The notes beneath the pieces were generated by a model. That model saw nothing but the letters and a program-made list of their open reading frames with translations. It had not been told where the DNA came from and searched no databases. Positions 1 through 28,489 of a stretch of DNA of 64,000 nt are shown here, piece by piece (within the stretch, counting starts at the first letter, position 1; each line of letters starts with the position of its first letter). Source of the DNA: Octopus vulgaris (taxonomy: Eukaryota); the NCBI GenBank assembly GCA_951406725.2, contig OX597818.1, forward strand, positions 80,848,001-80,912,000. The letters are read 5' to 3'. A program made the position numbers and the translations under genes.

Positions 1-720
1 AGTGATGAAAAGTTAAACGGTGCCGTTGGATGTTCTCCTATGGCTACCTCTAGTCCGGGTTTGTATCCTGCGGCTGTAATGCCTCCTGCCACAGATTCAA
101 GTATCGCTCCTTCTACTGCCTCCAGTACTGCTGCTACCGCTGCCACTACTGCTGCTGCTGCTGCCGCCGCCGCACCGTCTGGTGCCGCTGTCGTCTTGAA
201 TGGCACACATAATGATAACTTTAATCCTCGCAGGTCTTACCCCACTACTGCTGCCATTGGAAACGACTCTGAGAGTTGTGACGATGATGATGATGATAGC
301 TTCTCTCAACATGGTAACCTGCTCTCAAACATAGAGAACTTTTGTTTTGCCGACATGGAACCGTCGCCGAAACATAGCACAAAAAAATCCTCCAGCAATA
401 GGAACAGCAACAACTATGATAACAGTAACAATATATTCTGTGATTTAAATTCTGTCAATTTTAATACAGACAATAATAATAAAAGGGGGAGTGGTGATAG
501 TGTTTCAGGTGGCAGAAATGGTATTGAAGCGAAAACATCACCTGGCATTGCAAACGGCATTGGCGAAATGAATGGAACCAAGAATGATATTGTGACCCCC
601 AGAACTAATGAAGAAGGTGGTGGTGGTGGAGGAGGTATGATGAAGATGCATAGAAACAGGGCTGTGGAAGAGAGTGAACTTGTAACACCACAACCAGAAT
701 CGGTTAGACTGCTGCAGTGA
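1..720 (+). CDS. Terminal coding exon (5'-partial) of an unidentified gene; low-complexity Ala/Asn/Gly/Asp-rich C-terminus
   Basis: Frame 1 is open from base 1 (SDEKLNGAVGCSPM...) to TGA at 718-720; GC content is clearly higher than the flanks and AT-rich UTR-like sequence follows. No recognisable domain. Confidence 0.7.
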   Translation, partial: SDEKLNGAVGCSPMATSSPGLYPAAVMPPATDSSIAPSTASSTAATAATTAAAAAAAAPSGAAVVLNGTHNDNFNPRRSYPTTAAIGNDSESCDDDDDDSFSQHGNLLSNIENFCFADMEPSPKHSTKKSSSNRNSNNYDNSNNIFCDLNSVNFNTDNNNKRGSGDSVSGGRNGIEAKTSPGIANGIGEMNGTKNDIVTPRTNEEGGGGGGGMMKMHRNRAVEESELVTPQPESVRLLQ

Positions 721-17469: not shown

Positions 17470-18597
17470 TAGATAGATAGATAGAATGATAGAGAGAAAG
17501 ACGGACAGATAGATAGATAAAGATAGTTATAACCAGTTTATAGGGCTACTCAGGGTTTTGTGTCAAGGAAGTCTTAGTGTTACAATTTCACATGAGACCC
17601 TACTTCAATGTGATAGGCCACTGGCCATTGACAAAATGCTGTGAAGCTAAACAGTTTATAGATGCAAAACCCTGGGCAACCCTATCAACTGGCCATAACT
17701 ATCTTTATCTAAATGCTTTACTGCTCTATAACTTAGTATGCTTCTCTTTCAGATTTATAATTAACATGGTGGGAAAAAGCTTAGCAGCATTTTGTCCATC
17801 TTTATGTCCTAAGTTCAAATTCTGTCATGGCCAACTTTGCCTTTCATCCTTTTGGGGTCAGTAAGATATACCAGTTGAGCACCCTTCGCCAAAATTGTTG
17901 GCTTTGTGCCAAAATTCAAAGCCAAGTTACATGTATGCACATATATATCATTGAAAACAGCTTAGAGATCTATACAAATCAAATATTTATATATAAAAGA
18001 TGGAGGTGGAAATAACATAGAAGTAATTTTAAGACATCTTAATTTAAGAGGGAATTTAATAAAAATAAAAATGATTTAAAAAATATTACCGGTTTCAATG
18101 TACCTCATCGTATCAAATATGTATCTTGTCTTATCAAGATGTATCTCATCTTAGCAAGCATATAAACACATGTTCTTGAGCCCAGACAGAAGTTAAACTG
18201 TTTTTAATTCAAACTTCTTTAAATTTTTACTGATATTTGATAATATTTTCTTTATATCATTTTAAAATCATTTGTATTAAATTCCCTCTTAGATAGAAAT
18301 ATCTTAGACTTGACTTACCTCTGTGCTGTTTCCACTTCAATCTTTTATATATATATATATATATATATAATTAATCAATATAGGGTGGCAAGGAAAATTT
18401 TGTAGAATTTTATTGCCACCAGCGGCCCAGTGGGAAAAAATTAAATAGTCATAGACCATTTTTAAGTTCAACATTAACAATTAAGGAACGGCCATAATAG
18501 GCCATTCACCCACTAGAAATAACAGCCAAAGCTTCTACCGCAAATAAAGATCAATTCCGTAAACAGGAGAAAATTAAAAAAAAACATTTACCCTGTA

Positions 18598-18704
18598 ATT
18601 TCTTGTACGGTATACCGTTTCATCTGCTGTTTAATGGTAAACTAACCTGATTAAATTAAATCAAGCCAATCTTCCATAAGCCCTCAGATTCTTCAGCAAG
18701 AAAT
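18598..18704 (-). ncRNA. Type I hammerhead ribozyme, copy 1
   Basis: Minus strand: stem I ATTTCTTG/CAAGAAAT, core CTGAAGA, 68-nt stem II ATCTG...CAGAT, GAAA, stem III ACGGT-AT-ACCGT, cleavage triplet GTA (cut between 18606 and 18605). Confidence 0.9.
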
Positions 18705-19089
18705 AGCTCAAGTCGGAACAGATATTTACACGAGGCGTACCCAACCCTGCCAAGGCAATATCTGACCTAAAATTTTCAAATCGTCGCACTCGCGCCAAAT
18801 TTATCGGCAGCAAATAAATATCAGCCGTCGATTCCATTACGGAATTAACCAAAAAATTCATAATTAATCAATATAGGGTGGCAAGGAAAATTTTGTAGAA
18901 TTTTATTGCCACCAGCGGCCCAGTGGGAAAAAATTAAATAGTCATAGACCATTTTTAAGTTCAACATTAACAATTAAGGAACGGCCATAATAGGCCATTC
19001 ACCCACTAGAAATAACAGCCAAAGCTTCTACCGCAAATAAAGATCAATTCCGTAAACAGGAGAAAATTAAAAAAAACATTTACCCTGTA

Positions 19090-19196
19090 ATTTCTTGTAC
19101 GGTATACCGTTTCATCTGCTGTTTAATGGTAAACTAACCTGATTAAATTAAATCAAGCCAATCTTCCATAAGCCCTCAGATTCTTCAGCAAGAAAT
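19090..19196 (-). ncRNA. Type I hammerhead ribozyme, copy 2
   Basis: Same sequence as copy 1, offset 492 nt. Confidence 0.9.
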
Positions 19197-19581
19197 AGCT
19201 CAAGTCGGAACAGATATTTACACGAGGCGTACCCAACCCTGCCAAGGCAATATCTGACCTAAAATTTTCAAATCGTCGCACTCGCGCCAAATTTATCGGC
19301 AGCAAATAAATATCAGCCGTCGATTCCATTACGGAATTAACCAAAAAATTCATAATTAATCAATATAGGGTGGCAAGGAAAATTTTGTAGAATTTTATTG
19401 CCACCAGCGGCCCAGTGGGAAAAAAATTAAATAGTCATAGACCATTTTTAAGTTCAACATTAACAATTAAGGAACGGCCATAATAGGCCATTCACCCACT
19501 AGAAATAACAGCCAAAGCTTCTACCGCAAATAAAGATCAATTCCGTAAACAGGAGAAAATTAAAAAAACATTTACCCTGTA

Positions 19582-19688
19582 ATTTCTTGTACGGTATACC
19601 GTTTCATCTGCTGTTTAATGGTAAACTAACCTGATTAAATTAAATCAAGCCAATCTTCCATAAGCCCTCAGATTCTTCAGCAAGAAAT
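19582..19688 (-). ncRNA. Type I hammerhead ribozyme, copy 3
   Basis: Same sequence as copy 1, offset a further 492 nt. Confidence 0.9.
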
Positions 19689-20072
19689 AGCTCAAGTCGG
19701 AACAGATATTTACACGAGGCGTACCCAACCCTGCCAAGGCAATATCTGACCTAAAATTTTCAAATCGTCGCACTCGCGCCAAATTTATCGGCAGCAAATA
19801 AATATCAGCCGTCGATTCCATTACGGAATTAACCAAAAAATTCATAATTAATCAATATAGGGTGGCAAGGAAAATTTTGTAGAATTTTATTGCCACCAGC
19901 GGCCCAGTGGGAAAAAATTAAATAGTCATAGACCATTTTTAAGTTCAACATTAACAATTAAGGAACGGCCATAATAGGCCATTCACCCACTAGAAATAAC
20001 AGCCAAAGCTTCTACCGCAAATAAAGATCAATTCCGTAAACAGGAGAAAATTAAAAAAACATTTACCCTGTA

Positions 20073-20179
20073 ATTTCTTGTACGGTATACCGTTTCATCT
20101 GCTGTTTAATGGTAAACTAACCTGATTAAATTAAATCAAGCCAATCTTCCATAAGCCCTCAGATTCTTCAGCAAGAAAT
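20073..20179 (-). ncRNA. Type I hammerhead ribozyme, copy 4
   Basis: Same sequence as copy 1, offset a further 491 nt. Confidence 0.9.
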
Positions 20180-20564
20180 AGCTCAAGTCGGAACAGATAT
20201 TTACACGAGGCGTACCCAACCCTGCCAAGGCAATATCTGACCTAAAATTTTCAAATCGTCGCACTCGCGCCAAATTTATCGGCAGCAAATAAATATCAGC
20301 CGTCGATTCCATTACGGAATTAACCAAAAAATTCATAATTAATCAATATAGGGTGGCAAGGAAAATTTTGTAGAATTTTATTGCCACCAGCGGCCCAGTG
20401 GGAAAAAATTAAATAGTCATAGACCATTTTTAAGTTCAACATTAACAATTAAGGAACGGCCATAATAGGCCATTCACCCACTAGAAATAACAGCCAAAGC
20501 TTCTACCGCAAATAAAGATCAATTCCGTAAACAGGAGAAAATTAAAAAAACATTTACCCTGTAA

Positions 20565-20599
<35 letters not shown>

Positions 20600-20845
20600 A
20601 GTGTGTATTCTTTTATTCTTTTACTCTTTTACTTGTTTTAGTCGTTTGACTGCAGCCATGCTGGAGCACCACTTTTAGTGAAGTAAATCAACCCCAGGAC
20701 TTATTCTTCATAAGCCTAGTGCTTATTCTATCAGTCTCTTATGCTGAACCGCTATGTTACAGGGCCGTAAACACACCAGCGTCGGTTGTCAAGCAATGTT
20801 GTGGGGATAAATACAGACACACAAACATATACACACATATACAAG

Positions 20846-20879: not shown

Positions 20880-21156
20880 TATTTGAAGAAAAGAAGGGTA
20901 AAAATACCGCTATCTAAGAATTAAAGCAAAAGCTTCAAAAAACCACCAAGTCTACGATAAATACACATACAAGCAATGAAATGAATATTTTTAAAAATAG
21001 GCCTACCACCATGATGGAATTTGAAGGTAGGCCTATTTTTTAAAATATTCATTACATTGCTCTATGTGTGTATTTATCGTAGACTTGGTAGTTTTTTGAA
21101 GCTTTTGCTTTAATTTTTAGCAAGTGGTATTTTTACCCTTCTTTTCTTCAAATATA
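20877..21156. repeat. Fold-back element (~130-bp arms, ~18-nt loop) inside a SINE's microsatellite
   Basis: TTTGAAGAAAAGAAGGGTAAAAATACC...AGGCCTACC / GGTAGGCCT...GGTATTTTTACCCTTCTTTTCTTCAAA. Confidence 0.85.
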
Positions 21157-27493: not shown

Positions 27494-28489
27494 ATTGTGT
27501 TTATATCTTTTACACTTTTTCTTCTTTCAGTCATTTGACTGTGGCCATGCTGGAGCAGCACCTTTAGTCAAGCAAATCGACCCCAGGACTTATTCTTTGT
27601 AAGCCTAGTACTTATTCTATCGGTCTCTTTTGCTGAACTGCTAAGTTACAGGGACGTAAACACACCAGCTTCGGTTGTCAAGTGATGTTGGGATGAGGGG
27701 GACAAACACAGACACACAAACATATACATACACATACATGTATATATATACATACATACGACGGGCTTCTTTCAGTTTCCGTCTACCAAATCCACTCACA
27801 AGGCTTTGGTCGGCCCGAGGCTATAGTAGAAGACACTCGCCCAAGGTGCCACGCAGTGGGACTGAACCCAGAACCATGTGGTTGGTAAGCAAGCTACATA
27901 CCACACAGCTACTCCTGTACCTTGTACAGAATCATTCATTTTCCCCTCAAAAGCCTCTTCAAAATAGCTTTCAATGAGAGTATGAGGAAACATACAAAAT
28001 TTGTTTTTTCCCCTAAATACTCTTATACAATAGTTTTCAACTAGCAATAACCACACTTCGGATTTATCTCATTGGCCATGGTACCACCTCTTATACAATA
28101 AGGATGCATTGTATGAGAGAGTACGTCTTATATACCAGCAAATATGGTAATCACAATGCCTTCCCTACCTCAGTATTCAACTAGTACTTTATTTTTTCAG
28201 TCCCTAGGATAAGAAGGCAAAGTCAAACTTGGTGAGATTTGAACTCAGAATGCAAAGAGGCAGAACAAACACTACAAAGCATTTGTCTGATGCTCTAATG
28301 ATTACACCAATTCACCACTGTAATTCCACACCTAATAATACTAATAATGCTTGTCCATTGGAGTGACAAGGAGCATCTAGTCATCCTAGGATGATTGATG
28401 ACTTGTGCAGTGACTTTGTTTAAAGTGATGAATAGTTGCACATCATCAACCTAACTCTTTTATTCATGACCATCTTCAGTTCAGTTCAA

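What the first reader, a model, noticed from the sequence alone, without database searches (positions are those of the whole stretch)
20540..20575. Array boundary sits ~7 nt from the predicted ribozyme cut site
Seen: the array's right edge (5' end on the ribozyme strand) stops at ...CCCTGTAA (20564), whereas the unit would continue TTTCTTG to a cleavage site at ~20571/20572. The left edge (3' end) starts at ATAATT, merging with the (TA)n tract. Inference: the integrated cDNA came from an RNA whose 5' end was made by self-cleavage and was primed at the TA microsatellite by microhomology. A non-integer copy number with phase fixed at the cut site fits rolling reverse transcription of a circle or multimer better than unequal crossing-over.
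Basis: partly seen in the sequence, partly recalled or inferred. Interest (0 to 1): 0.75.

Follow-up and report, generated by a model that had tools for sequence, protein, structure and literature searches.

The report
Ribozyme leaves footprint on retrozyme insertions
This array is one insertion of a young, non-coding jumping repeat that carries a predicted self-cutting RNA motif, and its end 7 bases from the predicted cut is a genome-wide hot spot, which suggests that the motif sometimes sets where copying into DNA stops, although most copies end elsewhere.

Summary
In detail: the array (18367-20564, 4.48 units of ~491 nt) stops 7 nt short of the next predicted type I hammerhead cut, and its other end merges with (TA)n. 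The offset is not chance: genome-wide, 27 loci join (AT)n at +7..+9 after the cut, against 3 and 2 at equally exposed control sites and 6 at +1..+6. In 100 mapped insertions, 39 of 168 5' ends lie in +1..+40 (14.9 expected). But phase is not fixed there: 77% of 5' ends lie elsewhere and 88% of passes read through. The fixed ends are the 3' ends, at two registers (+131, +237), paired one per arm in 70 of 70 two-armed insertions: the Penelope 'tail' signature. Private variants are shared by all units of an insertion (26 all, 3 partial), so arrays were born as arrays, not grown by unequal crossing-over. The missing 7 nt are the ribozyme's stem I strand, so a cleaved end and an arrest at the folded ribozyme cannot be told apart here. 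Circle, cleavage and empty site are untested. The scan found this family and its two-register ends before on other DNA; the eight notes shown did not mention the +7..+9 peak.

The parts
18367..20564 (-). Single-armed retrozyme insertion, 4.48 head-to-tail units of 491-492 nt, non-coding (longest ATG frame 66 aa), 37% GC
18346..18369 (.). (TA)12 target tract at the element's 3' end; the junction is unit register +237, with 3 nt shared
   Evidence: same junction at 741 places genome-wide
20557..20564 (-). 5' end of the insertion, unit position +8 after the predicted cut; foot of hammerhead stem I
   Evidence: hot spot +7..+9 in 27 loci
20565..20606 (.). Other side of the target: ATATATAT then (GT)n; occupies the place of the 7 missing nt (virtual cut 20571/20572). 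A target duplication cannot be resolved
20073..20179 (-). Predicted type I hammerhead, cut 20081/20080, CUGAAGA 20171-20165
19582..19688 (-). Predicted type I hammerhead, cut 19590/19589
19090..19196 (-). Predicted type I hammerhead, cut 19098/19097
18598..18704 (-). Predicted type I hammerhead, cut 18606/18605

Best explanation
The array is one insertion of a non-coding hammerhead repeat family whose copies sit in (TA)n tracts; it was likely made by a Penelope-type reverse transcriptase that began at a fixed internal site (+237), likely copied one unit sequence 4.5 times, and likely stopped near a ribozyme-cut RNA end, so that the 7 nt of stem I were lost. Shown: target tract, two fixed 3' registers, their strict pairing in two-armed copies, identical units per insertion, and the 5' peak at +7..+9 with a shoulder to +40. 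Inferred: a dimeric Penelope enzyme breaks (TA)n and primes both DNA ends, one at +131 and one at +237; in this copy only the +237 arm survives. Inferred: at each pass over the ribozyme junction about 12% of cDNAs end (about 4-5% background), because the RNA ends there and its first 8 nt stay paired in stem I or are trimmed before joining. The template is more likely a monomer read repeatedly (circle, about 0.5) than a partly cleaved multimer (0.4) or a nicked monomer with end-to-end jumps (0.1).
For: 3' ends: in 40 insertions picked by similarity alone, 68 TA-flanked arms end at 107 (1), 128-134 (34) or 230-241 (33). Pairing: 69 of 69 two-armed insertions are 131+237, 70 of 70 with L167; 28 of these were not anchored on either register. 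An intact RT + GIY-YIG element in the same genome also ends in (TA)n at two registers 35 nt apart, and both of its 2 inverted copies among 16 pair the registers the same way. Penelope literature: inverted 5'-truncated copy, tail at one end only, (TA)n targets (PMC8557442, passages); two internal start sites, both strands extended, predicted dimer (PMC11167929). 5' ends: 39 of 168 in +1..+40 vs 14.9 (p 2e-8), 12 vs 13.5 in the 40 nt before the cut; holds in samples B+C alone (20 of 102 vs 9.4) and with one arm per insertion (26 of 99 vs 8.6). Blind scan: best window 3-26, LLR 17.1, null maximum 9.4 in 300 runs. Genome-wide (AT)n junctions: 6 (+1..+6), 27 (+7..+9), 9 (+16..+21), controls 3 and 2. 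Born as arrays: sample-private variants are in all passes in 26 cases, in some passes in 3; 335A is in 5 of 5 units of L052 and nowhere else; 294A is in 4 of 4 units over both arms of L059 and otherwise only in an 89% subfamily copy. 14 of 69 pairs share their 5' coordinate within 10 nt (3.6 by permutation), as if both enzymes reached one template end.
Against: 77% of 5' ends are outside +1..+40. Only 1 of 168 mapped ends is cleanly at +1, and only 3 genome-wide (AT)n junctions are at +1/+2 although most subfamilies offer a TA match there, so simple run-off at the cut is not the rule. The excess persists on later passes (19/136, 8/69, 2/39, 10/74), which a plain covalent circle already covered by cDNA does not explain. 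A circle-specific collision test was negative (7/121 vs 3/99). L031 is a mosaic of two variants. L051 carries a core-breaking A>G in GAAA in both units, awkward for a circle released by its own ribozyme. No autonomous partner with sequence similarity was found among 36 GIY-YIG loci. For the anole element, cleavage was dispensable in vitro and no RNA ends were seen at the cut (PMC11167929); 8 of 9 Xenopus retrozyme dimers did not cleave in vitro (bioRxiv 2026.07.22.740005). Many ends at +16..+37 lie in a T-run, where calls are uncertain by several nt.
Confidence: 0.6

Rival explanations
1. Same Penelope-type insertion, but the enzyme arrests at the foot of stem I of the folded, uncleaved ribozyme; cleavage plays no part in setting the end.
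For: The missing nt are exactly the 3' strand of stem I (+1..+8). Peak at +7..+9, few ends at +1..+2. Seven of 27 junctions have no microhomology. Cleavage was dispensable in vitro for the anole element (PMC11167929).
Against: Stronger predicted helices do not stop the enzyme: stop ratios 0.37 at 241-260 and 0.30 at 441-460; stem I is only -6.8 kcal/mol. No mapped end lies at 485-491, just past the cut, and L033 ends cleanly at +1.
Confidence: 0.25
2. The template's 5' end is a transcription start inside the unit at about +1..+20, not a ribozyme product.
For: Penelope pseudo-LTRs are thought to hold promoters (PMC3846280, PMC11167929, passages); a start there would give the same one-sided pile-up.
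Against: The lower edge of the enriched window falls at +1 to +3 without being told the cut, and the ribozyme core is kept with compensatory changes. A start would have to coincide by chance.
Confidence: 0.07
3. A short copy inserted and the array grew in place by unequal crossing-over or slippage; the boundary is that of the founding copy.
For: Proposed for vertebrate retrozymes (bioRxiv 2026.07.22.740005, Discussion). This copy has one arm, no private variant, and its empty allele was not seen. A +8 to +237 overlap could seed expansion.
Against: Private variants are all-or-none (26 vs 3) and cross the inversion between arms (L059, L063, L097, L127). 13 of 70 two-armed insertions have two or more laps on both arms. 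Expansion would not remove the +7..+9 hot spot, which 13 sub-monomer copies also show.
Confidence: 0.05
4. The 7-nt distance at this locus is chance: a random truncation joined at an AT-rich spot.
For: Most 5' ends are scattered; +7..+10 (ATTA) offers both AT and TA matches.
Against: Like-for-like pure AT junctions are 12 vs 3 vs 2 (p 0.002). About nine in ten ends at +7..+9 are excess over background.
Confidence: 0.03

Closest known systems
Metazoan non-LTR retrozymes (Cervera and de la Pena 2020, PMC7229834; Li, Clavereau and Pollet 2026, bioRxiv 10.64898/2026.07.22.740005)
   Same: Short, low-GC, non-coding tandem units, a type I hammerhead in each; proposed to be copied from circles into tandem cDNA by Penelope-like enzymes.
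   Different: Unit 491 nt (170-400 nt RNAs in the 2020 paper; 51-972 bp in the preprint) with a 70-nt stem II arm. In the parts I read neither paper maps insertion ends; the preprint leans to local tandem expansion, which this family contradicts. Cleavage and circles are shown there and untested here.
EN+ Penelope-like elements (Poseidon of Anolis, PMC11167929; Naiad/Neptune, PMC8557442; Adineta Penelope, PMC3846280)
   Same: Two internal 3' registers (tail), tail on one end only, head-to-head inverted 5'-truncated arm, partial tandems, (TA)n targets.
   Different: No protein; tail 106 nt instead of 30-40; up to 14 laps per arm; 5' ends peak next to the ribozyme cut, whereas the anole study found no role for cleavage in vitro.
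L1 twin priming
   Same: Both target ends prime cDNA on one RNA and the two cDNA ends join head to head.
   Different: L1's second primer anneals at variable internal sites; here both starts are fixed and arms run over several unit lengths.

Membership tests
Non-LTR retrozyme | Type I hammerhead in every tandem unit | tested here: met
   4 of 4 complete units; compensatory pairs. Rfam models did not hit.
Non-LTR retrozyme | Short, low-GC, non-coding head-to-tail repeat without LTR organisation | tested here: met
   491 nt, 37% GC, longest ATG frame 66 aa; upper end of published sizes. PBS/PPT motifs were not searched.
Non-LTR retrozyme | Dispersed mobile family | tested here: met
   About 1200-1300 candidates; 741 exact +237/(TA)n junctions.
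Non-LTR retrozyme | Self-cleavage of the RNA | not testable with these tools
   Prediction only.
Non-LTR retrozyme | Expression as monomeric linear and circular RNA | tested here: inconclusive
   Contigs of four runs guessed to be RNA cover the unit and bridge the cut; a tandem gives the same loop as a circle.
Non-LTR retrozyme | Target-site duplication longer than 4 bp when present | tested here: inconclusive
   Both flanks are (AT)n; 8 nt on the right could be a duplication or the rest of the tract.
Penelope-like element (insertion type) | Inverted 5'-truncated arm, head to head | tested here: met
   70 of 100 insertions; the window copy itself has one arm.
Penelope-like element (insertion type) | Two 3' registers, tail at one end only | tested here: met
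   +131 and +237, 70 of 70 hetero-paired; tail 106 nt, longer than the published 30-40.
Penelope-like element (autonomous) | RT plus GIY-YIG reading frame | tested here: not met
   No frame over 68 codons in the array; not an autonomous member.
Penelope-like element (derivative) | Sequence similarity to the pseudo-LTR of an autonomous partner | tested here: inconclusive
   None with the dominant 781-codon family or other sampled loci (36 loci of 6136 candidates).

The most novel reading that the evidence does not exclude
The hammerhead acts as a leaky, per-lap stop for a Penelope enzyme rolling around one RNA ring from two fixed starts: each pass ends about one cDNA in ten at the foot of stem I. 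The genome would then hold an in vivo record that a retroelement's hammerhead shapes its own cDNA, a role that in vitro work on a Penelope element did not find. A bolder form: the template is a uniform multimer made by rolling transcription of a ring and partly self-cleaved.
Probability: 0.35. Interest if true: 0.75.

Novelty: new variant of a known kind. Interest (0 to 1): 0.52.

Why it matters
What hammerheads do in Penelope elements and animal retrozymes is open: cleavage was dispensable in the one in vitro system, and whether retrozyme arrays are inserted as arrays or grow in place is debated. This family gives countable genomic answers: arrays are born whole, start at two programmed sites, and end next to the ribozyme about 2.6 times more often than expected, with a sharp peak at the foot of stem I. 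That gives a precise prediction (cDNA ends at +7..+9) for a reconstituted assay with active, dead and circular templates. The effect is real but accounts for a minority of ends.

Tried and rejected
Rfam: no hammerhead family hit, at gathering or E<=10. No listed holder is on record as RNA. Autonomous partner: not identified; the retrozyme fragment in L132 is a separate small insertion; one regex search found no canonical hammerhead in the dominant Penelope family. Collision test for a circle: not significant. A-to-I editing as the source of all-unit variants: rejected, 5 of 26 are A>G. T-run microhomology as the sole cause of the +16..+37 ends: other T/A runs show no excess (ratios 0.85, 1.09, 0.37). 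The lap-0 versus multi-lap split is biased by construction and was replaced by per-arrival counts. Earlier-findings search by sequence returned nothing. Literature searches listed no paper that maps retrozyme insertion ends against the cut; the library lacks most subscription papers, and supplements were not seen.

Full report
1. Observation. The window holds a tandem array at 18367-20564, period 491-492, 4.5 copies; units differ only in A-run length. The minus strand folds into a type I hammerhead. Across 15 subfamily variants 99.2% of cells pair and 4 pairs change on both sides; related sequences can inflate such counts. Predicted cuts are at 18605/6, 19097/8, 19589/90 and 20080/1. The array stops at 20564, 7 nt before the next virtual cut, and joins ATATATAT(GT)n; the other end joins (TA)12 with 3 shared nt. 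Below, unit position +1 is the first base after the cut on the ribozyme strand. The window copy runs from +8 through four junctions to +237.

2. Samples. The family has about 1200-1300 candidate places in a 2.8-Gb genome. I mapped three sets. A: the 40 places ranked by similarity, window included. B: 20 of the 24 new places among 46 exact +131/(TA)n junctions. C: the first 40 listed of 741 exact +237/(TA)n junctions. Mapping used natural units of ten variants. Dropped before counting: L034 (duplicate of L033), an older copy in L086, fragments in L073, and the cut-off second arm of L031b (completed later). L067 is censored by Ns. For four divergent arms (L093, L115, L116, L124) I accepted a short spacer before (TA)n by hand. 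This left 100 insertions and 169 arms, 170 with L167.

3. The fixed ends are the 3' ends. In unanchored set A, 68 TA-flanked arms end at +107 (1), +128..134 (34) or +230..241 (33). TA-flanked ends outside these registers were four internal fragments of complex insertions (L049 twice, L109, L119). The unit has 91 AT/TA dinucleotides, so this is programmed initiation and not free microhomology. 70 insertions have two scored arms, head to head, and all 70 pair +131 with +237. The other 30 are single-armed, have a partner too short to score, or are complex. This matches Penelope-like elements: inverted 5'-truncated copy, tail at one end only, (TA)n targets (PMC8557442 and PMC3846280, passages read), and two internal start sites with both strands extended by a predicted dimer (PMC11167929, parts 1-2 of 4 read). 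The genome has an intact RT + GIY-YIG family with (TA)n targets, a 35-nt tail and the same pairing in its 2 inverted copies of 16, but it shares no sequence with the unit. The partner is unidentified.

4. The 5' ends, the question asked. Corrected for how often each position is passed, 39 of 168 ends fall in +1..+40 against 14.9 expected (p 2e-8), and 12 against 13.5 in the 40 nt before the cut; sets B+C alone give 20 of 102 against 9.4, and set B alone is not significant (7 of 34, p 0.06). One arm per insertion gives 26 of 99 or 22 of 99 against about 9; a scan blind to the cut finds window 3-26 (30 vs 8.8; LLR 17.1, null maximum 9.4 in 300 runs). Genome-wide exact counts of 5' ends joined to (AT)n, as distinct loci: +1..+6, 6 (three at +1/+2); +7..+9, 27 with the window; +16..+21, 9; controls 145-147, 3 and 474-476, 2, with equal exposure. 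Of 20 of the 27 that I mapped, 13 are shorter than one unit, 5 cross one or two junctions and 2 are complex. So the window's end is a true hot spot. But 129 of 168 ends lie elsewhere and 279 of 318 arrivals pass on. Stops per arrival are 19/136, 8/69, 2/39 and 10/74 on successive passes, against 0.060, 0.046, 0.041 and 0.027 per 40 nt elsewhere.

5. What sets +7..+9. Positions +1..+8 are the 3' strand of stem I. Most subfamilies have T at +1 and so offer a TA match at the cut itself, yet their ends pile up at +7..+9, and 7 of 27 junctions, the window's among them, have no microhomology. Either the RNA was cleaved and its first bases stayed paired or were trimmed, or the enzyme arrests at the folded ribozyme. 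The one-sided edge at +1..+3, the clean +1 end of L033 and the lack of stops at stronger helices favour a cleaved end; the data do not decide.

6. Born as an array. Sample-private substitutions are in every pass in 26 cases (16 loci) and in some passes in 3; 70 are singletons. Some of the 26 may be unsampled subfamily differences. Two were checked genome-wide: 335A only in L052, 5 of 5 units; 294A in both arms of L059 and once in an 89% subfamily. Of 247 internal cut junctions one has a 1-nt loss and three carry a substitution against their subfamily form; none has added bases. This fits repeated reading of one covalently continuous unit sequence and not stepwise crossing-over. Against a plain circle: the excess of stops on later passes, the negative collision test, the L031 mosaic and the dead core in L051. 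A source array missing from this assembly cannot be excluded.

7. Not settled. The empty site could not be read. Runs guessed to be RNA hold the unit and bridge the cut, which shows neither circles nor ends.

8. Known and new. The element works like, and by the testable features is, an animal non-LTR retrozyme (PMC7229834: abstract, passages and Discussion read; bioRxiv 2026.07.22.740005: parts 1-3 of 5 read; no supplements seen). The 2020 paper proposes tandem cDNA from circles and names Penelope elements as candidates; the preprint suggests local expansion. My reading was reached, which showed that this scan had already reported the family, its two registers and twin priming on other DNA of this genome; I saw only short summaries of 8 of 301 matching notes. 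What this report adds is the test of the 5' end: a real but minority footprint of the ribozyme, peaking at the foot of stem I. That the host is an octopus is my inference from its repeats and from those notes.

9. Verdict. Observation confirmed; interpretation partly supported; new variant of a known kind; interest 0.52.

Noticed in passing
window 27969-28102 (-): U4 snRNA match, 52 bits, with a degenerate 3' part; likely a pseudogene.
   Followed up: no
window about 20885-21150: Imperfect ~270-bp palindrome (MITE-like) just right of the array, seen by eye.
   Followed up: no
window about 17975-18340; L132 430-600 and 2760-2950: The left flank resembles an AT-rich dispersed repeat seen twice in L132 (by eye).
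   Followed up: no
L150-L165 (e.g. G000:C4:105331500-105341499): Young intact Penelope family: 781-codon RT + GIY-YIG frame with a CxxxxCxxC motif (Neptune-like, label recalled), (TA)n target, 35-nt tail, partial tandems; no canonical hammerhead found by regex.
   Followed up: partly
L049 6566-7397; L169 420-670: Arms broken into ordered pieces separated by short (TA)n runs, as if priming was repeated several times.
   Followed up: no
L051 unit position 477: Both units carry GGAA in place of the core GAAA, a dead-looking ribozyme fixed in a young insertion.
   Followed up: partly
L031 (G000:C1:195860300-195868700): Longest arm seen (14.2 units), same variant group as the window, mosaic for two substitutions; may be a source locus or an assembly artefact. 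A second insertion lies 290 bp away.
   Followed up: partly
runs X12, X13 on window 19840-20320: T>C excess on the + strand (11 of 17 and 5 of 11 places), i.e. A>G on the ribozyme strand, one contig with 14 changes; may be editing, needs matched DNA.
   Followed up: no
L033 and L034 (C30): One insertion duplicated in inverted orientation about 360 kb apart; its main arm ends exactly at +1.
   Followed up: no
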